From an uncultured Methanomassiliicoccales archaeon (lineage in GTDB: Archaea > Thermoplasmatota > Thermoplasmata > Methanomassiliicoccales > UBA472), in the NCBI GenBank assembly GCA_963732855.1, contig CAVTBB010000003.1, forward strand, positions 7,019-71,018: a DNA stretch of 64,000 nucleotides. The letters run 5' to 3'. The notes beneath the pieces were generated by a model. That model was not told the DNA's origin. It ran no database searches and saw only the letters and a program-made list of their open reading frames with translations. A program made the translations under genes and the position numbers. This document shows, piece by piece, positions 7,076 through 57,255 of the stretch; the stretch's first letter is position 1, and every line of letters begins with the position of its first letter.

Positions 7076-7204
7076 ATGTGCCTGAAAGTAATGGTAAGAG
7101 AGTAAGGAGGGAATCCCATCAAGAACGAGATCTCCAGGGTCATCGCCAATACGGCGTACCAGACCTATGAGCGAAAGCTTCAGAAAGAGGTCGAGGAAGG
7201 TCAG

Positions 7205-7900
7205 GTGCCAAGGCACGTGGCCATCATCATGGATGGTAACCGCCGTTTCGCCAAGGAGTTTGGCCTCAGCACCACAGAGGGCCACATCAAGGGCAAGGAC
7301 AAGCTGGAGGAGGTCATGGAATGGTGCCGGGAACTGGGAATCAAGATCCTGACGGTTTATGCCTTCAGCACCGAGAACCTCAACCGGGATTCGGACGAGA
7401 TCGAGTACCTGATGAAGCTGTTCGAAGACAACTTCAGGCGGCTGGCTACAGATGAGCGGATCCATAAGTACCATATTCGGATTACCGTGATCGGCCAGAG
7501 GGAGCTGCTCCCGAAAAGGGTACAGAAGGTCATCGAGGAGGCAGAGGAAGCCACCAAGGAGTATGACTCATACTTCTACAACATCGCCATCGCCTATGGC
7601 AGCAGACAGGAGATCATTCAGGCCATCAAGCAGATTGCCGAGGCGGTGAAGGACGGAAGGATGGAAGTGCAGGATATCGACGAAGAGGTCTTTTCCAAGT
7701 ACCTCTACACCGCCGATTTCCCCGACCCAGACCTGATCCTGCGTACCTCCGGGGAAGAACGCATATCGAACTTCCTGCTCTGGCAACTGGCATATGCCGA
7801 GCTGTACTTCACCGACGTTTACTGGCCCGGATTCCGAAAAGTGGATTTCATGCGGGCTATCCGTTCATACCAACTGAGACAACGTCGCTTCGGCAAGTGA
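7205..7900 (+). CDS. uppS: cis-prenyltransferase (undecaprenyl/di-trans,poly-cis-prenyl diphosphate synthase)
   Basis: Motifs HVAIIMDGNRRFA and RTSGEERISNFLLWQLAYAELYF are present. The coordinates use the first canonical start (GTG 7205). UppS-like sequence continues in frame upstream to 7106; see findings. Confidence 0.88.
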   Translation: MPRHVAIIMDGNRRFAKEFGLSTTEGHIKGKDKLEEVMEWCRELGIKILTVYAFSTENLNRDSDEIEYLMKLFEDNFRRLATDERIHKYHIRITVIGQRELLPKRVQKVIEEAEEATKEYDSYFYNIAIAYGSRQEIIQAIKQIAEAVKDGRMEVQDIDEEVFSKYLYTADFPDPDLILRTSGEERISNFLLWQLAYAELYFTDVYWPGFRKVDFMRAIRSYQLRQRRFGK

Positions 7901-9663
7901 GTTTTAATACCCACAACATTTTCTCTGGCACCGAGGGACATCGATTGCGGGAAGATCTAATATTCATCCACGCCCCGAGCGTTTACGATTTCAGAAAGGA
8001 ATTCCTGTTCTACGGTCCGGTCAGCGATCTGGTCCCCTCGACACCGGTCTTCGAGATGTACCCCATAGGGTTCACGACGATGGCCACGGCATTACATGAG
8101 TCCGGATTCCGGGTCCGGATCATAAATTTGGCCAGCATGATGCTGAACAACCGTCAGCTCGACGTAGAGAAGGTCATAGCCAAGCTGGATTCGGCGGTGT
8201 TCGGCATCGATCTGCATTGGCTGCCCCACGCGCACGGCGCTTTAGAAGTGGCCAAGCTGGTAAGGAAGCTGCACCCTGACTCGAAGATCCTCATGGGCGG
8301 GTTCTCGTCCACTTACTATCACAGAGAGCTGATCCGATATCCCCAGGTGGACCTGGTGCTCAGAGGAGACTCCACCGAGGTCCCGGTGACCGAGCTGATG
8401 CATGCGCTGGAGAAGGGCACGCCCCTGGACAAGGTCCAGAACCTTACCTGGAAGGACGGATCGGGTAATGTGCATTTCAACGGTCTGACCTACATACCGA
8501 AAGACCTGGACCACTTGGACGTGGACTATGGGTGGATCGTCAAGTCGGTCATCAGGCATCGGGACCTGGAAGGTTTCAAGCCGTTCAAGGACTGGGACCG
8601 GTACCCGCTGACCGCGGTGTTCACCGTGAGGGGCTGTTCCGTCCAATGCGCTGTCTGCGGGGGTTCCTGCTCGGCCATGAAAGGCTTCCTGGGAAGGGAA
8701 CGTCCAGCCTACCGCTCCCCCGAGAAGGTGGCGGAAGACATACTGAACATCCAACAGTACCTGAAAGCACCCACCTTCGTGGTTGGTGACCTACGTCAGA
8801 ATGGCAAGGGATATGCCGAACGCTTCTTCAAGGAAGCGAAGGCGCTGGGCATCAAGAACCAGCTCATTCTGGAAACGTTCACACCGGCGAACGATGAGTT
8901 CTTCTCCATGGCGCAGAGATCGCTGGAATCGTACTCGGTGGAGTTCTCTCCCGATTCACATGATGAACGGGTGAGGAACGCCCTTGGTCGGCGGTTCGAC
9001 ACCCCTAGCATGGAACGTTCGGTGAAGAGCGCCCTGGACCATGGGGCGGAGAGGTTCGATCTGTTCTTTATGATCGGCCTGCCCCAGCAGACCAAGGAAT
9101 CCGCCTTGGCCAGTGCCGAGTATTCACGCAAGATGTATGAGATCGTGGGCAATGATCAGAGGCTGTTCGTGTTCATCTCCCCGTTAGCACCGTTCCTAGA
9201 TCCAGGCAGCATCATTTTCGAGAACCCCTCCAAGTATGGATATAGAACGCTGGCCCGGACATTGGAGGAGCACCGTGTCAGGCTTCTCTCACCGTCATGG
9301 AAGTACGTCCTCTCATACGAAACGGAATGGATGGACAGAGACCAGATTGCGGATGCCAGCTATGATGCGGCAGACATCCTGAACAGCGTCCGGTACGAGT
9401 GCGATCAGATCGGCAAGGATGAACTGGACCTCCGCCTGGCGCGGTCGGAGAACGCCAGGAAGATGATGGCCCGCATCGATGGCATCGTCAAAATGAAGGA
9501 CAAAAATGAGCGCAATGACGCGTTTCGATCGCTGAAGGCCGAGTCCGAGGAGCTCATGGAATCGACCATATGTCAAAAGGCCGACCTGGAATGGACATCC
9601 AAGGGCGTGGTGCGCAGCTTGCCCCGGGCTGTCTTCGGCCTCATAAAGGGAAAGAGAAAATGA
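7897..9663 (+). CDS. B12-binding-domain / radical SAM domain protein (class B-like)
   Basis: The 588-aa product has an N-terminal Rossmann-like B12-type domain (LIFIHAPSVYDF..YPIGFTTMATAL..RVRIINL). The radical SAM motif is CSVQCAVC (CxxxCxxC). Its GTG start overlaps the uppS stop (GTGA). Confidence 0.85.
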   Translation: MSFNTHNIFSGTEGHRLREDLIFIHAPSVYDFRKEFLFYGPVSDLVPSTPVFEMYPIGFTTMATALHESGFRVRIINLASMMLNNRQLDVEKVIAKLDSAVFGIDLHWLPHAHGALEVAKLVRKLHPDSKILMGGFSSTYYHRELIRYPQVDLVLRGDSTEVPVTELMHALEKGTPLDKVQNLTWKDGSGNVHFNGLTYIPKDLDHLDVDYGWIVKSVIRHRDLEGFKPFKDWDRYPLTAVFTVRGCSVQCAVCGGSCSAMKGFLGRERPAYRSPEKVAEDILNIQQYLKAPTFVVGDLRQNGKGYAERFFKEAKALGIKNQLILETFTPANDEFFSMAQRSLESYSVEFSPDSHDERVRNALGRRFDTPSMERSVKSALDHGAERFDLFFMIGLPQQTKESALASAEYSRKMYEIVGNDQRLFVFISPLAPFLDPGSIIFENPSKYGYRTLARTLEEHRVRLLSPSWKYVLSYETEWMDRDQIADASYDAADILNSVRYECDQIGKDELDLRLARSENARKMMARIDGIVKMKDKNERNDAFRSLKAESEELMESTICQKADLEWTSKGVVRSLPRAVFGLIKGKRK

Positions 9664-9678
9664 AGTTCCGGTCCAGCT

Positions 9679-10164
9679 TTATCTCTTGACCGCGGCCTTG
9701 GCCTTTCCTGAAACGGCTATGATTAGCTCCTTGGCTCCTAACGGATCCTCAATTCCGTTCTCTTCCAGGGACGCGCTGTCCACCCTTATCGGCAGCCTGA
9801 ACTCCACGAAGGAATAGGGACCCCATTCGCCCTTGATCCGGATATCCGTGCCATAGGGGCCGACCGTCTCCACCTGGCTTATCTTATTCAAGGGAGCTGA
9901 TTCAGAAAGAACATACTTCCTCTTGAAGATCCCTTTATGATCCAGCACCAGTAACCTCTTGTCTGTTAGGATCAATAGTGCCGGGTCCGGGGCTCCGACG
10001 TTCCTTTCGCCCCGGAACATCCTGGAACCTCCGGAGGTCTGCATGGATTCATGAGGAGGATGGTAGCCTTTCCATATCTGGACCACCGATTCACCCGAGA
10101 CCAGAAGTAACGCTACGCTAGCATTGACGATATGAAGATCAGCGTCTGCTTTTGCTTTCTCCAT
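9679..10164 (-). CDS. hypothetical protein with bacterial-PH-like signature
   Basis: The 161-aa product contains LILTDKRLLVLD, typical of bPH/GRAM-like domains. The assignment is weak. Confidence 0.45.
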   Translation of the reverse strand: MEKAKADADLHIVNASVALLLVSGESVVQIWKGYHPPHESMQTSGGSRMFRGERNVGAPDPALLILTDKRLLVLDHKGIFKRKYVLSESAPLNKISQVETVGPYGTDIRIKGEWGPYSFVEFRLPIRVDSASLEENGIEDPLGAKELIIAVSGKAKAAVKR

Positions 10165-10274
10165 CAGAACGCACCTAGGGAAGTACCGGTTTGCACCGTA
10201 TCAGCTTATTGATGCGCCGCTGACCCAAAAGGCGCATGGCCATTTCCAAGCGCCATTGGCTACCGAAGCATGTG

Positions 10275-11267
10275 TTAGCCAGCCATTTGGTGTGAACGGA
10301 GGTGCGCAGCGGTTTGAAGATCTCTGCGTTTCCAAGTCTCCTCATAGGCCATTAATGGAAGGCCCTTCAGGGCCGTGTCGGCGGCAGCCTGGCCGGCGAT
10401 ACGCCCGCAGATCATCGAGATCGGGATGCCTCCGCCGTTCACCGCCATGACCTGGCCGGCCGCATCACCGACCACGAGCGAATCGCCGATGACCGTCCGT
10501 TTGATCGGACCAGACATGGGGATCAGCTTGCCCATCGGCTTTTCCGTGCTCTTGATATTCTTGAGCTCCAGGAACCGATCGAAATATTCACCTACTGGCA
10601 TCCGGGAGAACCTCCGGGCCACACCTAGTCCAACGTTCGCGCCACCCTTCTTTGGCAATATCCATGCATAGCCACCGGGCGCGACGGTACCGAAATACAT
10701 CTCCGGGATCGGCTCGAACTCCCCTTTCACCTGGATCGAGACTCCCGGACAGAGGTCGGTAGAACGACCATATCCCAGGCTCTTACCTACCAAGGACAGT
10801 GGGCCGTCAGCGCCAACGATCACCTTCGCCTCTATGTCCATCTCAGGCGTGGATACCACTTTGCCAGCTACCTTGGTGCATTGCAGGCCGGTCCGTAATT
10901 CGGCCCCTGCTTTCACCGCTCTTGAGGCAAGATATTGGTCGAACCGGGCTCGGTCCGTCGTGTAACCGGCAAAGGGGACCTCCCAGGGTCTCAATTTCGG
11001 TGAGTAGATGCGAATAATATCGGTGGTAAGTGAATGAAGGTCCGCGGGTATGTCAAACAGGCTGTCCAGATCGGTCGCTCTTGGGAATATGTCCTTCATT
11101 TCCTCGACCGCCGGCATGAACTCGCCGCATCGAACCGGGATCCCGACCTGGGGCCTCTTCTCCAATATCAAAACGCTTGCGCCTTTTAGCGCTGCATGCT
11201 CGGCAGTAGTGCTCCCTGCCGGACCGGCCCCGACGACCACCACATCCACCTTGACAATTTTGGCCAT
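10275..11267 (-). CDS. geranylgeranyl reductase family FAD-dependent oxidoreductase (C-terminus apparently frame-disrupted)
   Basis: The N-terminus has the FAD fold motif VVVVGAGPAGS, followed by GGR-like core motifs. The ORF ends early at 330 aa. A +1 frame continues for ~55 codons to a TAG at 10175. Confidence 0.85.
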   Translation of the reverse strand: MAKIVKVDVVVVGAGPAGSTTAEHAALKGASVLILEKRPQVGIPVRCGEFMPAVEEMKDIFPRATDLDSLFDIPADLHSLTTDIIRIYSPKLRPWEVPFAGYTTDRARFDQYLASRAVKAGAELRTGLQCTKVAGKVVSTPEMDIEAKVIVGADGPLSLVGKSLGYGRSTDLCPGVSIQVKGEFEPIPEMYFGTVAPGGYAWILPKKGGANVGLGVARRFSRMPVGEYFDRFLELKNIKSTEKPMGKLIPMSGPIKRTVIGDSLVVGDAAGQVMAVNGGGIPISMICGRIAGQAAADTALKGLPLMAYEETWKRRDLQTAAHLRSHQMAG

Positions 11268-11312
11268 TCGAACGCCACCTCCTTCAATTGGACCAGAACC
11301 TCGATGACCCGC

Positions 11313-12278
11313 TCAGGACTTCCTTTCTAGGATCGCCTTGGTGAGCTCTTTCAGGGCCTCTTTGTACTCCGAAGGTCTTAGGACCTCCAGATCAAGGAGA
11401 GCCCTGTTGGCGTATTCCTCGGCCATGTCCGATGATGCGCTCAGGGCATCAGTCCTCTTAATCAGAGCTATCGCCTCGGCGACCTCGGCAGGACTTTTCT
11501 TATCCTTTCTGAAGATCTCCTTAATGCGATCGCCATGGGTCCTGTCCTTCATAGCGATGATGAGCGGGAGAGTGGGCTTGCCGTCTATGATGTCGATCCC
11601 GTGAGGCTTTCCCAACGTTACCTCATCGCCGGTGACGTCCAGGATGTCATCGACGATCTGGAAGGCGATGCCGACGTTGAGGCCATAGCTGCCCATGGCC
11701 TCCATGACCGCAGGGGATGCGTCCGCCAGATAGCTACCTACCCGAGCCCCTGCCTCGAACGGTCTTGCCGTCTTCCCTTCGATGATGCTAATGTAGACAT
11801 CGATGTTGGTGTCCTGGTCATGCTCGTAGTCGCTCTGAAGTATCTCCGATTCGGCGAGCGCTGTGCACGCATCGGCCACCACACCGATGACCTTCTCATC
11901 AAATGCTCCACCTAGTGCAAAACTTTTTACAAATAGGAAATCGCCTGCGATAAGCGCCTTCTGCGTGCCATACTTCTTGTATGCCGCCTGCCTGCCTCGC
12001 CGCATCTCTCCGCGATCATTGATGTCATCATGAATGAGAGTGGCGCTGTGAATCAGTTCGAAGGCGGATGCGACCTTGATGACCTTCTCTGGGTCCATGC
12101 CACCGGTCGCCTTGAAAATCAGTAATGCCACAGCCGGACGCATTCTCTTGCCGCCTGAGGTGATGATGTAGTTGCTGATCTCGGTGAGCAATGGTTGTTC
12201 AGAATGAACACTTTCGCGGAGTTGCTCCTCGACCATCCTGAGTTCATTCTGGACGGGAGCATCCCAGGTTGAAACCAT
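11313..12278 (-). CDS. trans-polyprenyl diphosphate synthase (IdsA family)
   Basis: The 321-aa product has the first Asp-rich motif LIHDDINDRGEMRRGR and the second FQIVDDILD. Confidence 0.88.
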   Translation of the reverse strand: MVSTWDAPVQNELRMVEEQLRESVHSEQPLLTEISNYIITSGGKRMRPAVALLIFKATGGMDPEKVIKVASAFELIHSATLIHDDINDRGEMRRGRQAAYKKYGTQKALIAGDFLFVKSFALGGAFDEKVIGVVADACTALAESEILQSDYEHDQDTNIDVYISIIEGKTARPFEAGARVGSYLADASPAVMEAMGSYGLNVGIAFQIVDDILDVTGDEVTLGKPHGIDIIDGKPTLPLIIAMKDRTHGDRIKEIFRKDKKSPAEVAEAIALIKRTDALSASSDMAEEYANRALLDLEVLRPSEYKEALKELTKAILERKS

Positions 12279-12492: not shown

Positions 12493-13155
12493 ATGCTATA
12501 CGTAGGACTGGACGTACATAAAGAATTTTGTCAGGCAATCAAGAACAAGGTCCATGCCGAACTGACCAGGAGAGGCATCCGAAGGCCGGATTCGTTCTCA
12601 AAACCGTTCACGAAAAAATCGGTCGAGTGGATGAGATCGCTCAACATTGTCACGATCACCGCCAACCTGGATTGCATCCAGGCAATCCAGGGACAGATAG
12701 AATCGATGAACGAGAAGTTGTATGTGGAGTATCAAAAGAGACCTGAGGCGCAACTGATCTCGTCATTCCCTGGCATCGGATATTACGGAGCTTTGCTGAT
12801 CTGGGCGGAGATCGCCGACATCCACCGTTTCCCGGACCCGGAGCATCTCAGCTCCTACGCCGGGCTGACCCCGACGGTCAGCCAGTCGGCGTCGACCGTG
12901 CATTACGGGGCGATAAGCAAGGAGGGTTCGAAGCACCTGCGATGGATCCTGACCGAATCGATCTACACTCACAAACGATACAATCCGGACAGCCAGCTAT
13001 CGAAGTTCCACTCCAAGGTCGAGAAGAAAAGAGGAAAACAGAAGGCCACGATGGCAGCAGCTCGGAAGCTGCTGCACGTCCTGTTCTGGATGCTCCAGAA
13101 CAACGAGCCCTATCACAGTCATGGATTCAACCCCGTGCACAAACCTGCGGCCTAG
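12493..13155 (+). mobile_element. IS110-family transposase remnant with internal deletion of the catalytic DEDD domain
   Basis: The N-terminal MLYVGLDVHKEFCQA (start of the DEDD domain) joins directly to the KNKVHAELTRRGI linker and the Transposase_20 part (SFPGIGYYGALLIWAEIADIHRF, YAGLTPTVSQS). It is 220 aa against roughly 350-400 aa for intact family members. Confidence 0.8.
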
Positions 13156-13356: not shown

Positions 13357-14838
13357 CTACGCGAAGAATGCCGCGGCCGCCTGCTGAGCAGCATTGAAGA
13401 ACGGGTCTGGCCAAATACCGATCAGGACCACAGCGAACACGCATATGGCGACTGCCGCTGCCATCGAGATCGGAATCTTGACCTTCTCGGTTGGGGTGCC
13501 CTCTTCCGCATCGTCCACGTACATGTACTTCACGATCCTTGCATAATAGTACAAGGAGATAGCGCTGTTGATGATGGCGGCAACAGCCAGCCACAGCATC
13601 CACTCGCTTCCCGGTACCACCGATTGTTGGATCGGGGATGAGAACAGGACGAATTTCGAGAAGAAACCAGCCAATGGCGGTATCCCTGCCAACGAGAATA
13701 GCATCACGGCCATGCCGAGGGCCATGAAAGGAGCCCGTTTGGCTAGTCCCTTGTAGTTGCTGATCGTCTCACCGATCGCCACCGTCGCCAGCGTGGCCAC
13801 GATGATGAACGCCCCTCCCTTCATGAAGGCGTGGGTCATTATCTGCATTATGCCTGCCGACAAAGCATACTCAGTCCCTACCGAGACCGCGATCAGGATG
13901 TAACCCGCCTGTGCGATGGACGAATACGCGAGCATCCTCTTGATGTTGGTCTGGCTTATTGCCGCCAGGTTGCCGACGGTCATCGTCGCAATTGCCACGA
14001 TGCCGATCATGATCTCCCAGTTGGACTTTATCGCGAACAATCCGATGAGGAGCACTTTGAACAGCGCGATGAACCCCATCTTCTTGCTGCCTGCGGCCAG
14101 CATTGCCGTGACCGTCGTTGGTGCGCCCTCGTATACATCGGGGGCCCACATATGGAAGGGGACGATCGCAACTTTGAAACCAAAGCCCGCGACGATCATG
14201 ACCAGCGCCAAGAATATCACCGACTGCATCGGCGAGTTCATGGTAACCGCCTGAGCCACACCGGCGAACGAGGTCGTGCCGGCCACTCCATACAGTAAGG
14301 ATATGCCGAACAGGGCTAGGCCGGACGACATACCGCCGATTATGAAGTACTTGACCGCCGATTCCGCTCCCTTTTCATCTTTCTTCCTGAAAGCCACCAG
14401 GGCGTACGAGGATATGCTGGTCAGTTCGATACCGACGAACAGCGTGATCAGGTCGGTGGAACTTGCCACGATCATCATTCCGACGGTGGCGATCATGATC
14501 AGGGAGTAGAACTCCGGCTGGTGTTTATCCTCCTGGATGAAGCGCGCAGAAGCCAGAATGACATAGAACGCCACTGCTAGGAAGATCATCATGAACAGCG
14601 CAGAGAACTGGTCTAGCTTGAGCAGGTTCCCGACGAAATATATCCCGGCGTTGTTGTTGTAGACGAACCAGAAGGCATCGGCGAAAGCCAAGCCCACACC
14701 CACGAGCGAGAACGCCGCGCATACCTTGCTGCTGCTCTTGGACAGCAGGCCGACCGCCGGCACCAGTATGGCGAACAGCGCCAAAAGGACCTCTGGACGG
14801 ATTGCTTCAATGTCGATCATCTTAAGCGCCCCCCACAA
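13357..14838 (-). CDS. nuoN: Fpo/Nuo complex subunit N
   Basis: The 493-aa polytopic antiporter-like subunit is the last gene of the operon. Confidence 0.9.
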   Translation of the reverse strand: MWGALKMIDIEAIRPEVLLALFAILVPAVGLLSKSSSKVCAAFSLVGVGLAFADAFWFVYNNNAGIYFVGNLLKLDQFSALFMMIFLAVAFYVILASARFIQEDKHQPEFYSLIMIATVGMMIVASSTDLITLFVGIELTSISSYALVAFRKKDEKGAESAVKYFIIGGMSSGLALFGISLLYGVAGTTSFAGVAQAVTMNSPMQSVIFLALVMIVAGFGFKVAIVPFHMWAPDVYEGAPTTVTAMLAAGSKKMGFIALFKVLLIGLFAIKSNWEIMIGIVAIATMTVGNLAAISQTNIKRMLAYSSIAQAGYILIAVSVGTEYALSAGIMQIMTHAFMKGGAFIIVATLATVAIGETISNYKGLAKRAPFMALGMAVMLFSLAGIPPLAGFFSKFVLFSSPIQQSVVPGSEWMLWLAVAAIINSAISLYYYARIVKYMYVDDAEEGTPTEKVKIPISMAAAVAICVFAVVLIGIWPDPFFNAAQQAAAAFFA

Positions 14839-16318
14839 CGATGGTTGTCAGTATTTTGACCGACGGCGTGATGTAGTCGAACATCAGCGCCGGCAGCATA
14901 CCGAAAAGAACGATCAATGCTGATAGAACGGCCAACGGTGCAGCCTCGAACCAGGAGAGATCATGTATGTGTTCCGTATCGACCTCTTTGGTCAACGGAC
15001 CGAACAAAGTCTTCTGCATCGCCCAGATGTAATAAGCAGCGGTGATGGCGACGCTTATTATGGGCAAGAGCAGGAGCCATCCGAACGAGTCGAACGTCGC
15101 CGTGAACACCGCGAACTCAGCCAGGAACCCGACCATGCCAGGCAGACCTAGCGAGGCCATGAAGCCGATCATCATGAAGACGGCCGCGAAAGGCATCTTG
15201 GCTGCCAGTCCACCGAGCCTCGGCATGTTCCTGGTTCCAACATGGTGCCCGACGATTCCGGCCATCATGAACAGGACGGCGGCGATCAGGCCATGCGCGA
15301 ACATCTGGAACACTGCGGCGGCGATGCCAAGTTCACCCAGTGTGGCGATTCCCAGCATCACTATGCCCATGTGGCTGATGGACGAGTAGGCTATCATCTT
15401 TTTCAAATCCTTCTGTGCCAGGCACATTATCGCCCCGTAGAGGATCGAGACGATGGCGATTATCACCATCACGATCTGGTACTGGTTGGCCCCATAAGGC
15501 AACGTTGGCAGGCAGATCCTTATGATACCGTAGGAACCCATCTTAAGCAACAGGCCCGCCAGCAGAACCGACCCTGCGGTCGGGGCCTCGACGTGCGCGT
15601 CCGGAAGCCAAGTGTGGAAAGGCACCATCGGCATCTTGACGATGAATCCGAAGAACAACGCCCCGAACACCACCAATTGGAAGAACTGACCGAACTGTCC
15701 GGACACCGACGCGATTGCCTGCATGTCGAACGTGGCATGCGCCAAGTGCGGCGCCGCCTCGAAGTAGAGCGCCAGTATGCCCAGCAGCATCACCAATGAT
15801 GCGATATGGGTATAGATGAAGAACTTGATCGAAGCATATGCACGCCTCGGACCTCCCCATATAGCTATGAGGAAATACATCGGAATCAGCACGACCTCCC
15901 AGAAGACGTAGAAAAGGAAGTAGTCCATCGATGTGAACACCCCCATCACTCCGACCTCCAGGATGAGCATCAGGCCCATGTACTGGTGTGTGCGCTCTTC
16001 CACATCCCAGGAGAACAGGATGGCGAGGAAAGAGAGCAGCGTGGTCAGGAAGACCATCGCTATGCTGATGCCGTCCAAACCAACCGAGTAGGATATGCCC
16101 AGAGTCGATATCCAGGTGAAGCTCTCAACGTACTGGAACGCTCCTATTGTCAGGGTGAACTCGGTCAGCAACAGGACGGACAATGCCAGCGGTACCGCGG
16201 AGAATACCAGGGCAACGATCTTCGATGCTTTCGGATACTTGCCCAGCATGAAAGAGACTATCGCACCGATCAACGGGATCAGTATGAGCAGCGTGATTAT
16301 GGGTATGTTTTGCAGCAT
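14822..16318 (-). CDS. nuoM: Fpo/Nuo complex subunit M
   Basis: The 498-aa antiporter-like subunit has HVEAPTAGSVLLAGLLLKMG. It overlaps nuoN by 17 nt. Confidence 0.92.
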   Translation of the reverse strand: MLQNIPIITLLILIPLIGAIVSFMLGKYPKASKIVALVFSAVPLALSVLLLTEFTLTIGAFQYVESFTWISTLGISYSVGLDGISIAMVFLTTLLSFLAILFSWDVEERTHQYMGLMLILEVGVMGVFTSMDYFLFYVFWEVVLIPMYFLIAIWGGPRRAYASIKFFIYTHIASLVMLLGILALYFEAAPHLAHATFDMQAIASVSGQFGQFFQLVVFGALFFGFIVKMPMVPFHTWLPDAHVEAPTAGSVLLAGLLLKMGSYGIIRICLPTLPYGANQYQIVMVIIAIVSILYGAIMCLAQKDLKKMIAYSSISHMGIVMLGIATLGELGIAAAVFQMFAHGLIAAVLFMMAGIVGHHVGTRNMPRLGGLAAKMPFAAVFMMIGFMASLGLPGMVGFLAEFAVFTATFDSFGWLLLLPIISVAITAAYYIWAMQKTLFGPLTKEVDTEHIHDLSWFEAAPLAVLSALIVLFGMLPALMFDYITPSVKILTTIVVGGA

Positions 16319-16324
16319 TTCAGA

Positions 16325-18382
16325 TCACCCCAGTACCTTCAAGACGAACCCAAGCACGTATAGCAGCACGATCAGGCCGACGATGCCGCCGATGACCACT
16401 GCGCTGTAGCTCTGTACCAGTCCGGTCTGCATTTTTCTCATCAACTTTCCGCCTCCGACGAGACCGCGGCTTATCAGGTTTACCAGGCCATCGATCACAT
16501 TTCGGTCGAACCAGTCGAGTACGAGCGAGAACCCGTACACGACCTTCTCGCCGAAGTAATCGTAGCCCTTGGTGAATCCGTACCTCTTCAACAGCATGTT
16601 GTACAGAGGCCTAACGAATGGCTTGCTGGCGATCGCACCGGCATCGATCTTCTTCTTGTAGAAGGTGAAGTACGCTAGTGCAATGCCCGCAATGGCCACC
16701 AATATTGAGACGTAGGTGAGCCAGTTTCCTAGGACCTTGTCCAGACTGAAGGCTTCGGGGAACTCACCGGCGAAGATCGTAGCCGAGAACCCTGCTCCGA
16801 TGAACACGACCAGACCGGAGCCGAAGGCAAGTATCGCCAGTATGACCAGCGGGCCAAGCATGACCCAGGGTGCCTCGCGGTGCGCGTGGACATCGGCCTC
16901 GTGGCCGTGCTCATCAGCGTGCGCCCCAACATGTTCGCCCTTGATTTCGGTGGCGTGTTTGGTCGCCTCTCCCTCTTCACCCGCGAAGGTCATGAACCAC
17001 ATGCGGAACATGTAGAACGCCGTCATGAAGGCTGTAGCAACGCCCATCAGCCAGAGCAGCATGAACACCCAGTGATCCGTCGACGCTTCGAATACGCTCG
17101 CCAATATCTCGTCCTTGGACCAGAAACCGCTTAGTATCGGTATACCGGCTATTGAGAGCGAACCGATGAGCATCACCACCGAGGTGACCTTCATGTGCTT
17201 TCGCAACCCTCCCATGAGCTTCAGCTCTTCGGTGTGGACGAAGTGAATGACCGCACCCGCTGAAAGGAAGAGCAGAGCTTTGAAGAAGGCATGGTTCATC
17301 AGATGGAACATGCCGGCGGCGAATGCGATGCTTCCTGCCGCCATCAAGGCCTCGTCACCATGCTTGAAGCCGATCCCGAACAGATATGCGCCTGTACCGA
17401 GCGACAGGAACATGTAGCCCAGTTGGCTGATGGTCGAGTACGCGAGGACGCGCTTGATCAACGGCGAGTTGAGCGCCATCGTGGAGGCCATCAATGCCGT
17501 GACACCGCCGATTATGGCGATGAACAATCCCATGTCAGGGACGAAGATCAGCAGTGGGAACATCCTAGCTACGAGATAGACGCCTGCCTTGACCATGGTC
17601 GCCGCATGAATAAGTGCGGACACCGTGGTCGGGCCTTCCATGGCATCTGGCAACCAGTCATGCAGCGGGAACTGTGCCGACTTACCGATCGAGCCGCCGA
17701 ACATGAAGAACAGGCCGAGGGCCAGCATTCCCTGGTCAACGCTCGCTATGATCTCCTGGTTGAACAGCGTGTGGAAATCGAGGGTCTTGAAGGTGGTCAA
17801 CAGCACGATCAGGCCGACCATGAACATGACGTCCCCGATCCTGGTGACGAGGAACGCCTTCTTAGCTGCCGATGCGGCCGACGGTCTCTCGAACCAGAAG
17901 CCGATGAGCAAGTAAGAACAAAGACCCACCAGCTCCCAGAATATGAACAGCTGCAGGAAGTTGTTCGCCAGTACCAGCCCGAGCATGACGCCTACGAACA
18001 GGCATATCTCGGTGTAGTAGCGGCGCCTCCTATCCCCCTGATCGTGCATGTACCCGATAGAGTAGATGACGACCAGAGCAGCGACGAACGAGACCACTAT
18101 GAGCATCAGGGCGGTTACGGTGTCGATATAGATACCGAGATCAAGGTTGTAACCCCCGATCGATACCCAGGTCATGCTCTGCTCAAAGTAATTTAGATGA
18201 CCTTCGAAGCCGACTGTGAGCGCCTCAAAGGCGACCAGCAGGGACAGCACCATCGCGCTTCCGACGCCGGCGATCGCGACGACCCCGCCCTTGTCCTTCA
18301 TCTTGCCGCCGAGGAACCCGACGATCAGGAACGCGACGAGCGGCAATAATGGGATGATCCACGCAAGTTCATATATCTGCAT
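16325..18382 (-). CDS. nuoL: Fpo/Nuo complex subunit L
   Basis: The 685-aa subunit has WLPDAMEGPTTVSALIHAATMVKAGVYL and a long C-terminal extension typical of NuoL. Confidence 0.92.
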   Translation of the reverse strand: MQIYELAWIIPLLPLVAFLIVGFLGGKMKDKGGVVAIAGVGSAMVLSLLVAFEALTVGFEGHLNYFEQSMTWVSIGGYNLDLGIYIDTVTALMLIVVSFVAALVVIYSIGYMHDQGDRRRRYYTEICLFVGVMLGLVLANNFLQLFIFWELVGLCSYLLIGFWFERPSAASAAKKAFLVTRIGDVMFMVGLIVLLTTFKTLDFHTLFNQEIIASVDQGMLALGLFFMFGGSIGKSAQFPLHDWLPDAMEGPTTVSALIHAATMVKAGVYLVARMFPLLIFVPDMGLFIAIIGGVTALMASTMALNSPLIKRVLAYSTISQLGYMFLSLGTGAYLFGIGFKHGDEALMAAGSIAFAAGMFHLMNHAFFKALLFLSAGAVIHFVHTEELKLMGGLRKHMKVTSVVMLIGSLSIAGIPILSGFWSKDEILASVFEASTDHWVFMLLWLMGVATAFMTAFYMFRMWFMTFAGEEGEATKHATEIKGEHVGAHADEHGHEADVHAHREAPWVMLGPLVILAILAFGSGLVVFIGAGFSATIFAGEFPEAFSLDKVLGNWLTYVSILVAIAGIALAYFTFYKKKIDAGAIASKPFVRPLYNMLLKRYGFTKGYDYFGEKVVYGFSLVLDWFDRNVIDGLVNLISRGLVGGGKLMRKMQTGLVQSYSAVVIGGIVGLIVLLYVLGFVLKVLG

Positions 18383-46752: not shown

Positions 46753-47922
46753 ATGGAATTCTGGAGCAAAGCGGCAGGCGATGCTGACGGAGGGACGGCG
46801 GTCCGCAGGAAGGTCCTGTTGGTGGTGTTCATCACCGCCGCGATCGTGCTCATGGCGGCCGGGGTATTGATGGTCCTGAGCCCGTCAGGAAGCCGGTTCA
46901 ACCTCTGGTTCGTGTTTCCAGGTGTTTGCACAATGGCAGGATGCTATCTCGCATCCGGACTGATAGGCGCAATGGCAAAGGGCAAATTGGCTGATTCTTT
47001 GCACTCAGGCATCCAGGTTCTGACCCTGGCTCTCCTGCTGGGGTTGCTCGCCATCTTCTTTCCAAACGCGCCGAAAGGGGCACTCGGTTTCGGTCTGATG
47101 CTGATGTTGACCGGGGGCTTGAACTTGGTCGCCTTCGTTGCCAAAGCATACTCGGATCATTATTGGCTAGTAGGGAGGGCTATCGTGATCATGATGCTGG
47201 GCCTTACCCTTGAGATGGGTGTCGCCCTGACGACCGTCTCTGATATCCTGAGAGGTATACCGCTAATGGTGGCGATCATCATAGCGATGCTGTCATTGAC
47301 GGGGATACTGCAACACCACAGCAACTCGACCGCGCGGTTGATCGGCCGTTTCTTCCGAAATGCCTCCAACATGATCACAGTGACGGTGGTCCTGACCCTG
47401 GTTTTCGTTTATGCCCTGAAGTTGAGAAGTGAGATCGCCCAGAAGGCACCCGAGCAGACCCTGCTAGCAGAGTGGATCGTTCTGGCCGTTGTGATCATCG
47501 TGGTGGGATACAAGTTCTTCTCCTTCTTCCGTTCCAGGGAAAAACCTCAGGATTTCTGTGACACACGCAAACTGGTCCAGTCGATATATCATGACAGGGG
47601 CGATACCGGCTACGCCCAGAGCGTGGTGGACCAGTTCATCGTCGAGGGCAAGAGGGAACCTCTTGTGGTTCTACTAACGACGGTTCTGGTACAAGGCCGA
47701 CTGAACCCTTTTGAGGTAGAGAGGATCATTGGAGGCGTGGTCCGTTACAATTCCAAAGAACAAAGGTTCGCCTTCCGGTGGGCCTTGGGCAACGAATTGG
47801 CGACGATCAGAGAAGAGAGGACAAGGATAGCGTTCGATGCGCTCGATCAGACGGCACAGATCCTAGGCGCTGGCTATCTTATGTCCAATCGTGCCGACCC
47901 GACCAGGATCGGAGAGGGATAG
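46753..47922 (+). CDS. polytopic membrane protein with C-terminal soluble domain
   Basis: The 389-aa product has about 8 hydrophobic helices followed by a ~130-aa hydrophilic region. It starts 5 nt after the preceding gene. Confidence 0.6.
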   Translation: MEFWSKAAGDADGGTAVRRKVLLVVFITAAIVLMAAGVLMVLSPSGSRFNLWFVFPGVCTMAGCYLASGLIGAMAKGKLADSLHSGIQVLTLALLLGLLAIFFPNAPKGALGFGLMLMLTGGLNLVAFVAKAYSDHYWLVGRAIVIMMLGLTLEMGVALTTVSDILRGIPLMVAIIIAMLSLTGILQHHSNSTARLIGRFFRNASNMITVTVVLTLVFVYALKLRSEIAQKAPEQTLLAEWIVLAVVIIVVGYKFFSFFRSREKPQDFCDTRKLVQSIYHDRGDTGYAQSVVDQFIVEGKREPLVVLLTTVLVQGRLNPFEVERIIGGVVRYNSKEQRFAFRWALGNELATIREERTRIAFDALDQTAQILGAGYLMSNRADPTRIGEG

Positions 47923-47923
47923 A

Positions 47924-54755: not shown

Positions 54756-54980
54756 TCCAGCAAAGAATCAATGTCAACCTCCGCTATAATATTCTATCAT
54801 GTTCACACTAAATGCGGACAAGAAATAGGTCCTCTTCCTCGGTCGAGCCATTGTGACCGACCGATGATATACCCGCTTGAAATTAAGACCGGCCTTGTTC
54901 CGTCCTAGAGTTGCTCCATGGCTCATTGTCAGTTCTAAAAACAGCACCCTGGAGGTCTATCCATATACGAAGATTACCGA

Positions 54981-54991
54981 TTTTATAAATA
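54981..54991 (+). promoter_or_regulatory. candidate TATA box for the radical SAM gene
   Basis: The element TTTTATAAATA ends 24 nt upstream of the ATG at 55015. This is consistent with a leaderless or short-leader archaeal transcript. Confidence 0.4.
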
Positions 54992-55014
54992 GAGACCTGA
55001 CGTTCTTTCGGACA

Positions 55015-55944
55015 ATGAATATGTCAGAGGCGAGGAAGTACAGCTATTATGCGGGGTGGCTCCTTCGTTCATATATCGGCGATAAAAGGCCATTGGTTAA
55101 TACGATGATCATCCATTATAAGTGCAACCTGAGTTGCCAGCATTGCTCGATCGCGGCCAACCAGGACAAACTGCCCTCCCCCAGATCGATGTCCTTTGAA
55201 ACCATAATCAAAGAGATGCAGACGACATTCGACGAGGGCGCCAGGATATTGTTCTTCGAGGGAGGGGAGCCGACCATTTGGTCGGATGGGGACAAAACAC
55301 TTGACAATCTTATCAAAGAGGGTCGAAGAATTGGATATTTCGTTATCGGCTACACGACGAACGGAATCGGCACATTATTCGAGGAGAGCGATGTGATCTC
55401 CGTGAGCCTTGATGGACCAAGGGAGATACACGACCTTATCCGCGGCCCTGGTGTTTTCGACCAGCTGATGCGGAATCTCGGCAAAACGACCCACCCGAAC
55501 ATCTTCGCCAACATGGTAGTAACGAAAACGAACATCGAATACGTCAGGGCGACAGCGGAAATTGTAGCCAAGACCCCTACAGTAAAGGGGATGATGATCA
55601 ATTTCCTAACTCCCCCTCCATACGATATCTCCCTGACCCTCGAAGAAAAGAAAAAGGTGGTGGAAGAGGTCATTGGACTGAAGAAAGAGGGCCTCCCCAT
55701 CGTCAACTCCAACAAGGCCCTGAAAGAACTGCTCATCGAGAACTACTCTGGAAGATGCCCCTATTGGATATCATCATTCACATTGCCGAATGGCACCAAG
55801 TTCCACGGATGTCCTATGGAAGGGACCGCGTCATGCAAGAACTGTGGGTTCGATGCCGTAAGAGAGTATCGACTCATCCTGAGAGGCGACGTCGGAACGA
55901 TATCTAAAATGTCCAGGTTCGCACAATCAAAACAATCACGATAA
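55015..55944 (+). CDS. radical SAM protein with C-terminal Cys cluster (SPASM/twitch-like)
   Basis: The radical SAM motif is CNLSCQHC (CxxxCxxC), with GGEPT and VSLDGPREIHD. The C-terminal Cys residues are CPYW...HGCPMEGTASCKNCG. The ATG at 55015 is supported by the upstream TATA. Confidence 0.8.
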   Translation: MNMSEARKYSYYAGWLLRSYIGDKRPLVNTMIIHYKCNLSCQHCSIAANQDKLPSPRSMSFETIIKEMQTTFDEGARILFFEGGEPTIWSDGDKTLDNLIKEGRRIGYFVIGYTTNGIGTLFEESDVISVSLDGPREIHDLIRGPGVFDQLMRNLGKTTHPNIFANMVVTKTNIEYVRATAEIVAKTPTVKGMMINFLTPPPYDISLTLEEKKKVVEEVIGLKKEGLPIVNSNKALKELLIENYSGRCPYWISSFTLPNGTKFHGCPMEGTASCKNCGFDAVREYRLILRGDVGTISKMSRFAQSKQSR

Positions 55945-56911
55945 GTAATTCATTCGCTATGGCCAGCTTTAGGAACTGAGGTATAGGGCGCCAATACTGA
56001 AGATCATCTTTCTTGTTCAGCAGTCTTACGGCACCGATCGCAATGGGCACAGTGAGGAACAACACGACAAACCAGGGATCGAGCACGACGGCGCATGCCA
56101 CAAAGACATAGTAGGAAATGAGAAGTGCCGATTCAAACTTCTTCAGGTTACCAAGCCCGAACCGGACTACCAGATTCCTTTCCCCCATCTTAAGATGGGC
56201 AGGGATTCCAGGGGCTTCATCGGATATCCTCATCAACATCACCGTGGTGCCGACCGTCAATGATAGGAACAGGATCGTCCAATTGAATTGCTGGACAATC
56301 ACATAGTATGAGAAAAAGGAGATCATCATGAATGACAGGAACACGTCGATCTCCCCCAGTCCCTTAGCCCCAAGGTTCAATGGCGGGGCAGTATAGAAGA
56401 AGGCTAGAGCAAGAGATATCAGGCCAAGCACTATGACCAGTAACCCGCCAAAGATGACAATCGGTATGGCAATCAACACCGCTATGGCGCCAAGGAAGAG
56501 CATTAACATCCTACCCTGCCTGTCGGAGATGATGCCACGATCCAGAGAATTACCGGACCAGAAGACCTTCTGATTGAAGAGTTTCGCAATCCGGGCCTTC
56601 AGATCGGGGTCGTCGGTATATGAAAAACGCAATTTATCCACACCGCTCTTGTGGTCGAAGTAGTCATTGGAAAAGTTGACAAATAGGGCCAAAAAGAAGA
56701 CGTCCAGTGGTATTAACAAGGCGATGAGCCACTCCTGCTTCAGAGTTAGGGCGAACACCACCCCCACAACCGATGAGAGCACGAAAGGCAGCGTGTAGGC
56801 TATTCGAAGGACATCCTTAGTTTTCTCCCATCCAGTCACTTTCGTCTCAGAATCCATCAGATCACTTGCGTCGGGACGGCCAATGGCGCGAACGGTATTA
56901 TAGATTGCCAT
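55904..56911 (-). CDS. UbiA-superfamily prenyltransferase, MenA-like first motif
   Basis: The polytopic product has NFSNDYFDHKSGVD (NxxxDxxxxxD) as its first Asp-rich motif. The second motif region is atypical (RISDEAPGIPAHLKMGERNLVVRFG). The start is uncertain: the ORF is open to 57163 and 56911 or 56857 are plausible. Confidence 0.7.
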   Translation of the reverse strand: MAIYNTVRAIGRPDASDLMDSETKVTGWEKTKDVLRIAYTLPFVLSSVVGVVFALTLKQEWLIALLIPLDVFFLALFVNFSNDYFDHKSGVDKLRFSYTDDPDLKARIAKLFNQKVFWSGNSLDRGIISDRQGRMLMLFLGAIAVLIAIPIVIFGGLLVIVLGLISLALAFFYTAPPLNLGAKGLGEIDVFLSFMMISFFSYYVIVQQFNWTILFLSLTVGTTVMLMRISDEAPGIPAHLKMGERNLVVRFGLGNLKKFESALLISYYVFVACAVVLDPWFVVLFLTVPIAIGAVRLLNKKDDLQYWRPIPQFLKLAIANELLIVIVLIVRTWTF

Positions 56912-57255
56912 ATTCGTTGATGCCGCGGAAAGGAGTCCGTTTTTCCCAGTTCGGGTTGAGGAATTGAACCCAAATCGACGTTCTGTTCCTTTTTCATCGC
57001 TATCTTTTGACGAGGGGGGATGACCCATCCTGAACATCGGTGAATCAGTTGCCGATCTTGGAACCACTGGAAAGAAAAATGACAATGGCTCGCCGGAGCA
57101 ACTCCCCCCCTTGCATATGAACGGAAGTATAACGATCCTCTGTAACATCATATTGATCGCCATCGACCTCTGCTAACTGTAGCCTATAGAAAAATGATTC
57201 CGGAAAAAGTCATGAGGAAATGGTTTCTGGTAAATCGTTGGATAGGCTAGCCCAT

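What the first reader, a model, noticed from the sequence alone, without database searches (positions are those of the whole stretch)
7205..12278. B12-type radical SAM enzyme translationally coupled to uppS inside an isoprenoid-lipid gene neighbourhood
The 588-aa B12-binding/radical SAM gene starts with a GTG that overlaps the uppS stop (GTGA). Within 3 kb of it lie a geranylgeranyl reductase and a polyprenyl diphosphate synthase. Archaeal tetraether synthase (Tes/GDGT-MAS) and the GDGT ring synthases (GrsA/B) are radical SAM proteins with a similar domain layout. SAM-derived methylation of the glycerol backbone has been proposed for butanetriol tetraethers in Methanomassiliicoccales. This enzyme is therefore a candidate membrane-lipid-modifying radical SAM protein with unassigned chemistry.
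Basis: inference. Interest (0 to 1): 0.65.

Follow-up and report, generated by a model that had tools for sequence, protein, structure and literature searches.

The report
Grs-family B12 radical SAM lipid enzyme
This archaeal gene encodes a vitamin-B12-dependent radical enzyme from the family that appears to include the enzymes that put rings into archaeal membrane lipids; its apparent overlap with the neighbouring uppS gene comes from reading the gene too long, and its exact reaction in this methanogen group is still untested.

Summary
Two relatives with 89% identical proteins carry one extra base in the spacer, so their only possible start is the TTG matching window 7945. All six relatives examined start 24-445 nt after the uppS stop. 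Each spacer holds an AT-rich, TATA-like box.

The protein is therefore 572 aa. It is a full-length TIGR04190 (Ta0216-family) cobalamin radical SAM enzyme (663 bits, cutoff 500). It has one CX3CX2C cluster, a confident B12-rSAM fold and an amphipathic C-terminal helix. It is not Tes-like.

By indirect argument, TIGR04190 holds the GrsA-type GDGT ring synthases. I could not obtain a GrsA sequence to test this directly.

The uppS-rSAM adjacency holds in 7 of 7 Methanomassiliicoccales loci, but only as part of a larger housekeeping block. It is absent in 86 loci from other lineages.

Unexpectedly, the closest outside relatives (45-48% identity) often sit in operons with a MenA-like prenyltransferase, a polyprenyl synthase and a small radical SAM gene that is truly start/stop-overlapped. 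Homologues of two of these partners, the small radical SAM and the MenA-like gene, lie as a pair at 54.9-57.2 kb in this window.

Best reading (0.42): a Grs-type isoprenoid-chain modifier. Butanetriol-lipid methylase remains possible but unsupported.

The parts
7205..7900 (+). uppS (cis-prenyltransferase, archaeal dolichol/polyprenol backbone synthase). The real N-terminus probably starts upstream, near 7118.
   Evidence: PF01255 291 bits and TIGR00055 308 bits. The upstream in-frame stretch 7106-7204 is conserved with the UppS N-termini of relatives.
7901..7944 (+). Non-coding spacer between uppS and the radical SAM gene. It holds a TATA-like box TTTTAATA (7902-7909) and a Shine-Dalgarno-like GAGGG (7933-7937), so it probably carries the gene's own promoter.
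   Evidence: 93% conserved with L003/L004 but tolerates a 1-nt indel, so it is not coding. AT-rich boxes lie at the same place in L001, L008 and L009. Promoter function is inferred.
7945..9663 (+). TIGR04190 (Ta0216-family) cobalamin-dependent radical SAM enzyme, 572 aa, TTG start. The 7897 GTG extension is spurious.
   Evidence: TIGR04190 663 bits against a cutoff of 500. Start codon. CX3CX2C at C231/C235/C238 and all 51 invariant columns of the 45-sequence alignment, which includes this protein. AF2 pLDDT 91.4. Best PDB fold matches are TsrM, TokK, MgmA, CysS and OxsB. The C-terminal 18-mer has the highest hydrophobic moment in the protein.
10275..11267 (-). Geranylgeranyl-reductase-family paralogue, convergent with the radical SAM gene. 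It is C-terminally truncated here by a 1-nt insertion near 10326.
   Evidence: TIGR02032 190 bits, but only 99-109 bits on the digeranylgeranylglycerophospholipid reductase equivalogs. 330 aa against 362-363 aa in relatives; the frameshift is seen in alignment A4.
11313..12278 (-). Trans-polyprenyl diphosphate synthase (IdsA type).
   Evidence: PF00348 230 bits. It falls below every NCBIfam equivalog cutoff.
54877..55944 (+). Small radical SAM protein (PTO1314-like). It is a homologue of the small radical SAM gene that is start/stop-overlapped with TIGR04190-type genes in other lineages.
   Evidence: PF04055. TIGR03961 67 bits, below cutoff. 30-35% identity with E down to 5e-55, nearly full length, to the operon partners in L018, L024, L034, L048 and L050.
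55904..57163 (-). Divergent MenA-like UbiA prenyltransferase, convergent with and overlapping the small radical SAM gene. It is a homologue of the prenyltransferase found beside TIGR04190-type genes elsewhere.
   Evidence: PF01040. Its best NCBIfam hits are MenA models, all below cutoff. Its best matches among the metagenome loci are the operon UbiAs of L024, L050 and L048 (about 30% identity, E 8e-22).

Best explanation
The gene at 7945-9663 (+) starts at TTG, not at the GTG. It encodes a 572-aa cobalamin-dependent radical SAM enzyme of the TIGR04190 family, which by inference includes the GrsA-type GDGT ring synthases.

Shown here:
- An N-terminal Rossmann-type B12 domain.
- A partial TIM barrel carrying a single CX3CX2C [4Fe-4S] site, with no auxiliary-cluster cysteines.
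- A helical C-terminal domain that ends in a cationic amphipathic helix suited to sitting on the inner face of the membrane.

Inferred mechanism:
- The enzyme cleaves SAM to a 5'-deoxyadenosyl radical.
- That radical abstracts hydrogen from an unactivated carbon of a membrane-embedded isoprenoid chain.
- Cobalamin manages the substrate radical while a new C-C bond forms.
- In this methanogen lineage the most likely outcome is a cyclopentane ring in glycerol/butanetriol tetraethers.

The gene is probably transcribed from its own promoter in the 44-nt spacer. It is not translationally coupled to uppS. The uppS adjacency is lineage-specific synteny.
For: - TIGR04190 full-length match, 663 bits against a cutoff of 500.
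- 41% identity over 507 aa (E 4e-137) to the Pyrobaculum oguniense member, which scores 801 bits on the same model.
- Table S1 of bioRxiv 10.1101/2022.08.15.504015 lists exactly two Grs homologues in Thermoproteus tenax: one 51% identical to GrsA over 99% of its length, the other 54% identical to GrsB. That preprint also says the GrsB clade carries an N-terminal coiled coil.
- The Thermoproteus sp. and Pyrobaculum TIGR04190 proteins start directly at the family N-terminus, so they are the GrsA-type copy.
- The architecture matches the published description of Grs: Rossmann domain, partial TIM barrel with CX3CX2C, C-terminal helix and no auxiliary cluster (PMC13459092).
- All 51 columns that are invariant in the alignment, which also holds Thermoproteales, Bacillaceae and Bathyarchaeia members, are by construction shared by this protein.
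- The Methanomassiliicoccales clade is monophyletic with 62-92% identity, so the gene is conserved and single-lineage.
- Isoprenoid genes are neighbours here and in independent lineages.
Against: - No GrsA or GrsB sequence could be obtained. Membership of GrsA in TIGR04190 therefore rests on inference, and identity to the validated enzymes is probably only about 30-35%.
- Homologous lipid B12 radical SAM enzymes at that distance are known to differ in chemistry: methylases versus the Ted desaturase (bioRxiv 10.1101/2025.10.20.683597).
- TIGR04190 members abound in Bacillaceae and other bacteria that make no tetraethers.
- The closest relatives outside the order sit with MenA-like prenyltransferases and a second radical SAM gene, not with tetraether genes.
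- I could not verify from held literature that Methanomassiliicoccales make ring-bearing tetraethers.
Confidence: 0.42

Rival explanations
1. The enzyme is one component of a conserved module made of a TIGR04190-type B12 radical SAM, a small PTO1314-like radical SAM, a MenA-like UbiA prenyltransferase and a trans-polyprenyl diphosphate synthase, sometimes with a GGR. The module would build or tailor a prenylated membrane compound other than a tetraether, for example a quinone-like or other polyprenylated molecule. In this genome the module is split between 7.9-12.3 kb and 54.9-57.2 kb.
For: - Our protein is 45-48% identical over its full length to the TIGR04190-type genes sampled from 9 of 78 metagenome loci. 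Only one Thermoplasmata cluster representative outside the Methanomassiliicoccales hits (51%) is closer.
- 19 of those loci have a MenA-like UbiA within four genes, 12 of them directly upstream on the same strand.
- 6 loci have a small radical SAM directly upstream. Its stop overlaps the ATG by 8 nt (ATGCCTAA or ATGCCTGA) in four of them.
- 3 loci have IdsA/HepT-like synthases and 3 have GGR.
- At least three different gene orders occur. The 23 lipid-context loci fall into 7 clusters at 70% identity.
- The window carries homologues of both partners as an adjacent pair (E 5e-55 and 8e-22).
- TIGR04190 occurs in many bacteria that make no tetraethers.
- The locus lies beside an Fpo/Nuo operon in all 7 Methanomassiliicoccales loci and in a Bathyarchaeota contig.
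Against: - The partners are 46 kb away here, and they were not seen within the 6-8 kb flanks (less on one side of L004) of the six related Methanomassiliicoccales loci.
- 39 of the 78 loci show no lipid genes at all.
- From my memory of Becker et al. 2016, which I could not read here, M. luminyensis contains no quinones or methanophenazine.
- No chemistry is known for such a module.
- The window's UbiA is only weakly MenA-like, at 81 bits against cutoffs of 102 or more.
Confidence: 0.27
2. It is the B12-dependent radical SAM C-methyltransferase that converts the glycerol backbone of GDGTs to butanetriol and pentanetriol (BDGT/PDGT). These are the main lipids of Methanomassiliicoccus luminyensis.
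For: - The methyl group comes from methionine, probably via a SAM enzyme, according to Coffinet et al. 2022 as summarised in PMC11767167. None of the papers I could read names a gene for it.
- The enzyme class (cobalamin radical SAM) is the right one for methylating an sp3 carbon. Its nearest solved folds are class B methylases.
- The gene is strongly conserved across the order.
- Its sister clade in the tree includes Bathyarchaeota sequences, and Bathyarchaeia are the other reported BDGT producers (PMC13003381 and PMC12694404).
Against: - The same subclade is full of bacteria that make no BDGT.
- No residue change sets the Methanomassiliicoccales proteins apart at family-invariant positions.
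- The only validated chemistry inferred for this family is cyclisation.
- M. luminyensis also has a homologue of the Gmm/Ted family, which contains the known lipid methylases. That is a more natural candidate.
Confidence: 0.11
3. It modifies the product of the adjacent UppS, meaning the saturated dolichol/polyprenol phosphate carrier. The GGR paralogue would act as the polyprenol reductase and IdsA would supply the primer.
For: - The uppS-rSAM adjacency holds in 7 of 7 Methanomassiliicoccales loci.
- The GGR is a paralogue, not the canonical lipid reductase equivalog.
- GGR-family enzymes are known to reduce archaeal dolichol (PMC10821996).
Against: - No UppS lies next to any of 78 metagenomic or 6 genomic relatives outside the order.
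- The adjacency is embedded in a long block of unrelated housekeeping genes.
- The gene probably has its own promoter.
Confidence: 0.05

Closest known systems
NCBIfam TIGR04190 (B12_SAM_Ta0216), function unnamed by NCBI
   Same: Full-length match above the curated cutoff (663 against 500 bits). Same domain order, same N-terminal D-L-x-(F/L)-(I/L)-H-A-P-S-V-Y-D-F-R block and the same CX3CX2C motif.
   Different: Nothing structural differs. The window protein belongs to a Methanomassiliicoccales-specific clade that is 62-92% identical internally and at most 51% identical to anything outside it.
[quoted passage not shown] 2019)
   Same: B12-binding radical SAM protein of about 550 aa with a Rossmann domain, a partial TIM barrel, a C-terminal helix and no auxiliary cluster. 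It is 41% identical to a Pyrobaculum protein inferred to be the GrsA orthologue.
   Different: Direct similarity to GrsA/GrsB was not measured. It lacks the N-terminal coiled coil of the GrsB clade. The host is a mesophilic methanogen lineage. The nearest relatives have different gene contexts (MenA-like prenyltransferase and a small radical SAM gene).
Gmm / Cgm / Pgm methylases and the Ted desaturase (MoeK5-like B12 radical SAM lipid modifiers; Garcia et al. 2024, 2025)
   Same: Cobalamin radical SAM enzymes that act on tetraether chains. They are predicted to be peripheral membrane proteins bound through the C-terminus.
   Different: A different family. Our protein's only strong NCBIfam hit is TIGR04190, and HpnR-type methylase models reach only 56 bits. 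No Gmm or Ted sequence was available for a direct comparison.
Hopanoid tailoring pair: HpnH (radical SAM with DUF3463) plus HpnP/HpnR/HpnJ (B12 radical SAM enzymes)
   Same: A small DUF3463-type radical SAM gene is paired with a B12 radical SAM gene next to isoprenoid genes. This is the arrangement seen in L018, L024, L034, L048 and L050. HpnR and HpnJ are the next-best NCBIfam hits of our protein.
   Different: The scores are far below the family cutoffs (HpnH 35-59 bits against 225; HpnR 56 against 650). No squalene-hopene cyclase is in the context. This is an analogy, not membership.
Solved cobalamin radical SAM enzymes TsrM (6WTE), TokK (7KDX), MgmA (9CCB), CysS (9N1B) and OxsB (5UL4)
   Same: Same overall fold: Foldseek E 1e-14 to 1e-17 and TM-score (query-normalised) 0.48-0.57.
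   Different: Only 11-15% identity, and no sequence-level hit in the PDB. Their substrates are unrelated.
Tetraether synthase Tes / GDGT-MAS (MA_1486, MJ0619)
   Same: A radical SAM enzyme acting on archaeal lipid tails.
   Different: Tes has auxiliary Fe-S clusters and a rubredoxin-type domain and, to my knowledge, no cobalamin domain. Our protein has a B12 domain and only the three radical SAM cysteines invariant. The Tes model NF045702 is not among its 14 NCBIfam hits, and no Tes structure appears among the matches.

Membership tests
TIGR04190 (Ta0216-family B12/radical SAM) | Full-length HMM score above the curated cutoff of 500 bits | tested here: met
   663.4 bits, E 2.6e-199, profile positions 1-527 of 554.
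TIGR04190 (Ta0216-family B12/radical SAM) | N-terminal B12-binding domain followed by a radical SAM core with CX3CX2C | tested here: met
   PF02310 at residues 50-161 and PF04055 at residues 243-406, both numbered on the 588-codon ORF. C231, C235 and C238, numbered on the 572-aa protein, are invariant in 45 sequences. The AF2 model is confident.
GDGT ring synthase (Grs) | Significant full-length similarity to the genetically validated GrsA or GrsB of S. acidocaldarius | tested here: inconclusive
   No GrsA or GrsB sequence was obtainable. Two genome scans with published saci_1585 primers found nothing. The indirect chain is: 41% identity to Pyrobaculum P0465, plus the published Table S1 for Thermoproteus tenax.
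GDGT ring synthase (Grs) | Architecture: Rossmann B12 domain, partial TIM barrel, C-terminal helix, no auxiliary Fe-S cluster | tested here: met
   AF2 secondary structure, Foldseek matches to B12 radical SAM enzymes and only three invariant cysteines. Published description in PMC13459092.
GDGT ring synthase (Grs) | The host makes tetraethers that carry cyclopentane rings | not testable with these tools
   The lipid papers on M. luminyensis (Becker 2016, Coffinet 2022) are not held. The held papers do not say whether rings are present.
GDGT ring synthase (Grs) | Ring-forming activity on GDGT-0 | not testable with these tools
   Needs heterologous expression and LC-MS.
Tetraether synthase Tes / GDGT-MAS | Radical SAM core plus auxiliary clusters and a rubredoxin-type domain (review), without a cobalamin domain (my knowledge); match to NF045702 | tested here: not met
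   NF045702 is not among the 14 NCBIfam hits. There is no PDB sequence hit. A B12 domain is present. No Tes structure appears among the Foldseek matches at E<=0.001.
GMGT synthase Gms (checked for the window's small radical SAM at 54877-55944) | AhbD-like SPASM radical SAM (E about 1e-79 to AhbD) with a roughly 100-aa COG4001 N-terminal domain | tested here: not met
   The AhbD model reaches only 39 bits and no SPASM domain is found. The definition comes from PMC11214058.
Translationally coupled gene pair (uppS with the radical SAM gene) | A genuine start codon that overlaps or abuts the upstream stop and is conserved in relatives | tested here: not met
   A 1-nt indel in L003/L004 makes the GTG unusable. 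Gaps of 24-445 nt occur in six relatives.
Class B radical SAM methyltransferases acting on lipids (Gmm/Cgm/Pgm; hypothetical BDGT synthase) | Membership of the MoeK5/Gmm-like clade, or demonstrated methyl transfer | not tested
   No reference sequences were available. Only weak hits to methylase models were found (HpnR 56 bits, KedN5 28 bits).

The most novel reading that the evidence does not exclude
The protein may not be a tetraether ring synthase. It may instead be half of a conserved two-radical-SAM system: a TIGR04190 B12 enzyme plus a PTO1314-like small radical SAM. This pair would work with a MenA-like prenyltransferase and a polyprenyl synthase to make a prenylated membrane compound that has not yet been recognised. 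The system is found from Bathyarchaeia to several bacterial lineages. In Methanomassiliicoccales it lies beside the Fpo complex. The butanetriol-backbone methylase reading is a second, less likely, novel option (about 0.1).
Probability: 0.25. Interest if true: 0.7.

Novelty: new member of a known kind. Interest (0 to 1): 0.42.

Why it matters
Tetraether lipids and their modifications underpin palaeoclimate proxies and archaeal membrane physiology.

Three points follow from this gene:
- If it is a ring synthase, Methanomassiliicoccales in guts, sediments and wetlands become a predicted source of ring-bearing GDGT/BDGT.
- If it is not, the family now used to infer "ring synthesis potential" from metagenomes is functionally broader than assumed. 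It occurs in Bacillaceae, and in other lineages it sits beside MenA-type prenyltransferases.
- None of the papers I could read names an enzyme for butanetriol tetraethers, and this gene stays on the short list.

There is also a practical point. The apparent GTGA overlap shows how a single-base difference in a spacer can create a false "coupled" gene pair.

Tried and rejected
1. Retrieving S. acidocaldarius grsA with published primers. The first pattern probably spanned the deletion junction. The second was a checking primer.
2. Naming distant representatives through cluster look-ups. This gave taxa but no Sulfolobus or Thermoplasma isolate.
3. Mapping Ta0216 to the Grs homologue CAC11433.1 through accession numbers in papers. 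No paper was found.
4. Literature on TIGR04190, or on Grs in Methanomassiliicoccales. Nothing relevant is held. Zeng 2019, Becker 2016 and Coffinet 2022 are not held.
5. Tes-like reading. Rejected.
6. The 552-aa gene next to the Pyrobaculum homologue as a possible tandem paralogue. It is unrelated.
7. The small radical SAM as Gms. Rejected.
8. The 312-aa protein upstream in 39 loci as a hidden UbiA. It has no hydrophobic segments and no Pfam hit.
9. A Ted-Grs cluster in the Bathyarchaeota B23 contig. Not present.

Full report
**Observation**

The ORFs are at the stated coordinates. They are:
- uppS at 7205-7900 (+): PF01255 291 bits, TIGR00055 308 bits.
- A 588-codon ORF at 7897-9663 (+) with B12-binding and Radical_SAM domains.
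- A small bPH-like ORF at 9679-10164 (-).
- A geranylgeranyl-reductase-family gene at 10275-11267 (-).
- A polyprenyl synthase at 11313-12278 (-).

The GTG at 7897 does overlap the uppS TGA. The best protein matches are named Methanomassiliicoccales archaeon, and the closest are 87-92% identical metagenome sequences. The organism is therefore a member of that order.

**The start codon**

Homologues are 570-576 aa. They begin four or five residues before a conserved D-L-I-(F/L)-(I/L)-H-A-P-S block, and the two closest were called from a TTG.

A DNA alignment of the junction with two loci whose proteins are 89% identical shows a 1-nt insertion in them between the GTGA and the TTG. In those loci the uppS TGA is itself the in-frame stop upstream of the radical SAM ORF, and no other start exists.

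In six relatives the start lies 24-445 nt after the uppS stop. If P0111's internal Met, the one aligned with the other starts, is used, the shortest gap is 45 nt. The window ORF stays open upstream, out of frame through uppS, only because of that one base.

The true gene is therefore 7945-9663, 572 aa, with a TTG start. GAGGG lies 7 nt upstream of the start. The box TTTTAATA lies at 7902-7909, and AT-rich boxes occupy the same place in the other spacers. I read this as the gene's own archaeal promoter; that is an inference. Translational coupling is not supported.

**What the protein is**

- It matches NCBIfam TIGR04190 (Ta0216 family) end to end at 663 bits against a cutoff of 500. The next best models (HpnR, BchE, HpnJ) score 40-56 bits.
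- It has no sequence relative in the PDB.
- An AlphaFold2 model built on a 45-sequence alignment is confident: pLDDT 91.4, pTM 0.90.
- The model's best structural matches are the cobalamin radical SAM enzymes TsrM, TokK, MgmA, CysS and OxsB, at 11-15% identity and query-normalised TM-score 0.48-0.57.
- Only three cysteines are invariant, the CX3CX2C at 231/235/238, so no auxiliary cluster is expected.
- Fifty-one columns are invariant across the aligned Methanomassiliicoccales, Thermoproteales, Bathyarchaeia, Bacillaceae and other bacterial members, including D-L-H-W..H at positions 89-95 and G-D..E at 141-145. This protein is part of that alignment.
- The last 18 residues (VVRSLPRAVFGLIKGKRK) have the highest helical hydrophobic moment in the protein. 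This fits a peripheral, C-terminally anchored membrane enzyme, as proposed for related lipid enzymes.
- It is not Tes-like. The Tes model is not among the 14 NCBIfam families it matches, and no Tes structure appears among the sequence or fold matches.

**Is TIGR04190 the Grs family?**

I could not obtain GrsA or GrsB. Two scans with published saci_1585 primers found nothing. The argument is therefore indirect:
- The family is large: 333 clusters at 50% identity with E<1e-30.
- NCBI's TIGR04190 label appears on proteins of Thermoplasmata, Nitrososphaeria/Aigarchaeota, Methanoperedenaceae, Thermoproteus, Infirmifilum, Thermofilum, Fervidicoccaceae and Hecatellales. A Pyrobaculum oguniense protein that NCBI names only "Fe-S oxidoreductase" scores above the cutoff as well.
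- That Pyrobaculum oguniense protein scores 801 bits over the whole model and is 41% identical to ours over 507 residues.
- A published table of Grs homologues lists exactly two for Thermoproteus tenax. One is 51% identical to GrsA over 99% of its length; the other is 54% identical to GrsB. The table also lists divergent third copies where they exist.
- The same preprint says the GrsB clade has an N-terminal coiled coil.
- The Thermoproteus and Pyrobaculum TIGR04190 proteins begin at the family N-terminus, so they should be the GrsA-type copy.

I put about 0.8 on GrsA lying inside TIGR04190. Even then our protein is probably only about 30-35% identical to the validated enzyme. Lipid B12 radical SAM enzymes at that distance can differ in chemistry.

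**Neighbourhood**

Within Methanomassiliicoccales, uppS followed by the radical SAM gene occurs in 7 of 7 loci, spanning 63-89% protein identity. GGR plus IdsA lie convergent downstream in 5 of the 7.

However, the whole series FTHFS-FolD-Tpt1-DUF2797-TiaS-UppS-rSAM-...-Fpo is syntenic. Adjacency inside the order therefore says little about function.

Outside the order no UppS is adjacent:
- Two Bacillaceae loci hold stand-alone genes.
- The other genome loci are Pyrobaculum, Infirmifilum, Methanoperedenaceae and a Bathyarchaeota contig.
- None of 80 metagenome loci has an adjacent UppS.

**An unexpected association**

The metagenome loci were seeded with a Bathyarchaeota sequence. The nine whose TIGR04190-type genes I compared with ours are 45-48% identical to it over the full length. 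Only one Thermoplasmata cluster representative, at 51%, is closer among the sequences that are not from the Methanomassiliicoccales hit set.

Among the 78 loci that carry the gene:
- 19 have a MenA-like UbiA prenyltransferase within four genes, 12 of them directly upstream on the same strand.
- 6 have a small radical SAM of about 300 aa directly upstream. It resembles the PTO1314 family and has a weak DUF3463 domain. In four of these loci the ATG of the B12 gene overlaps its stop by 8 nt.
- 3 have IdsA/HepT-type synthases and 3 have GGR.

Gene orders differ between lineages: MenA-IdsA-small rSAM-B12 rSAM; GatB-SAM hydrolase-MenA-B12 rSAM; and B12 rSAM-ArsA-UbiE-MenA-IdsA-GGR. The 23 lipid-context loci form 7 clusters at 70% identity. 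The other large group, 39 loci, is a bacterial FdhE-x-rSAM-SelA-RluD block without lipid genes.

The window itself holds homologues of both partners as an adjacent convergent pair:
- A small radical SAM at 54877-55944, 30-35% identical with E down to 5e-55 to the operon partners.
- A MenA-like UbiA at 55904-57163, whose best matches among the metagenome loci are the operon UbiAs.

The small enzyme is not Gms, which is an AhbD homologue with a COG4001 extension. TIGR04190 is also common in Neobacillus, Mesobacillus and other Bacillaceae, which make no tetraethers.

**Interpretation**

It is firm that this is a cobalamin radical SAM enzyme of TIGR04190. Recurrent and independent gene contexts point to a membrane isoprenoid substrate.

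The specific reaction is not settled:
- 0.42 for a Grs-type ring closure on tetraethers. This rests on family, architecture and the host's tetraether membrane.
- 0.27 for a role in the MenA-like/small-radical-SAM module on a different prenylated compound.
- 0.11 for the butanetriol/pentanetriol backbone methylase. No gene for that step is named in the papers I could read. The Gmm/Ted-family homologue reported in M. luminyensis is a more natural methylase candidate.
- 0.05 for a dolichol modifier.

**Verdict**

This is a new member of a known family. One attractive detail of the finding, the coupling, was an artefact. The functional question stays open, and the partner genes found elsewhere in the window give concrete material for an experiment.

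Noticed in passing
window 7103-7204: The stretch upstream of the uppS GTG encodes, in frame, a conserved UppS N-terminus (IKNEISRVIANTAYQTYERKLQKEV). The codon aligned with the ATG of relative L002 is ATC (7118) here and in L004. L001 also has ATC there but has an upstream in-frame ATG. GGAGG lies 7 nt upstream and an in-frame TAA sits at 7103. uppS in this clade probably starts at a non-canonical codon. Gene callers truncate it to 223 aa in L003/L004.
   Followed up: partly
window 10176-10330: The GGR paralogue has a 1-nt insertion near 10326 relative to L003/L004. The ORF is cut to 330 aa instead of 363, while the downstream sequence stays conserved. This is either a real frameshift or an assembly error. 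It is the second single-base difference of this kind in the region.
   Followed up: partly
window 54877-57163: A convergent, 41-nt-overlapping pair: a PTO1314-like small radical SAM and a divergent MenA-like UbiA prenyltransferase carrying a roughly 120-aa N-terminal extension. They sit in a lineage reported, from my memory of Becker 2016, to lack quinones. Both are homologues of genes found in operons with TIGR04190-type genes elsewhere.
   Followed up: partly
window 12493-13155: An IS110-family transposase fragment (PF02371) is inserted between the polyprenyl synthase and the Fpo operon. The close relatives L003 and L004 have only about 170 nt there.
   Followed up: no
L005, L006: TIGR04190 proteins are widespread in Bacillaceae (Neobacillus, Mesobacillus, Anaerobacillus) and Alicyclobacillaceae. 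They are 57-61% identical to a protein labelled as a Thermoplasmatales MAG. They occur as stand-alone genes, with two copies in Neobacillus mesonae. No function is known, and these bacteria make no tetraethers.
   Followed up: partly
L010 6068-7004; L012 10854-11810; L013 4321-5328: An ArsA/Get3-like ATPase gene lies directly beside the TIGR04190-type gene in a Methanoperedenaceae genome and in two Bathyarchaeota contigs.
   Followed up: no
L020, L021, L027; window 47891-50192: In three of the metagenome loci printed in full the TIGR04190-type gene is flanked by a MoxR AAA+ ATPase and a DUF58 protein (the MoxR cluster occurs near the gene in five loci). The window has a MoxR-DUF58 pair 38 kb away from its copy.
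   Followed up: no
window 13357-18382 and L001-L004, L008, L009, L012: The radical SAM locus lies next to the Fpo/Nuo-type complex I operon in every Methanomassiliicoccales locus examined, and also in a Bathyarchaeota B23 contig.
   Followed up: no
L010 11915-15671; L011 10923-13805: Cobalamin biosynthesis genes (CbiC, CbiA, CbiG) or cobalt ECF transporter genes lie within a few kb of the TIGR04190-type gene in Methanoperedenaceae and Infirmifilum. This is consistent with a cobalamin requirement.
   Followed up: no
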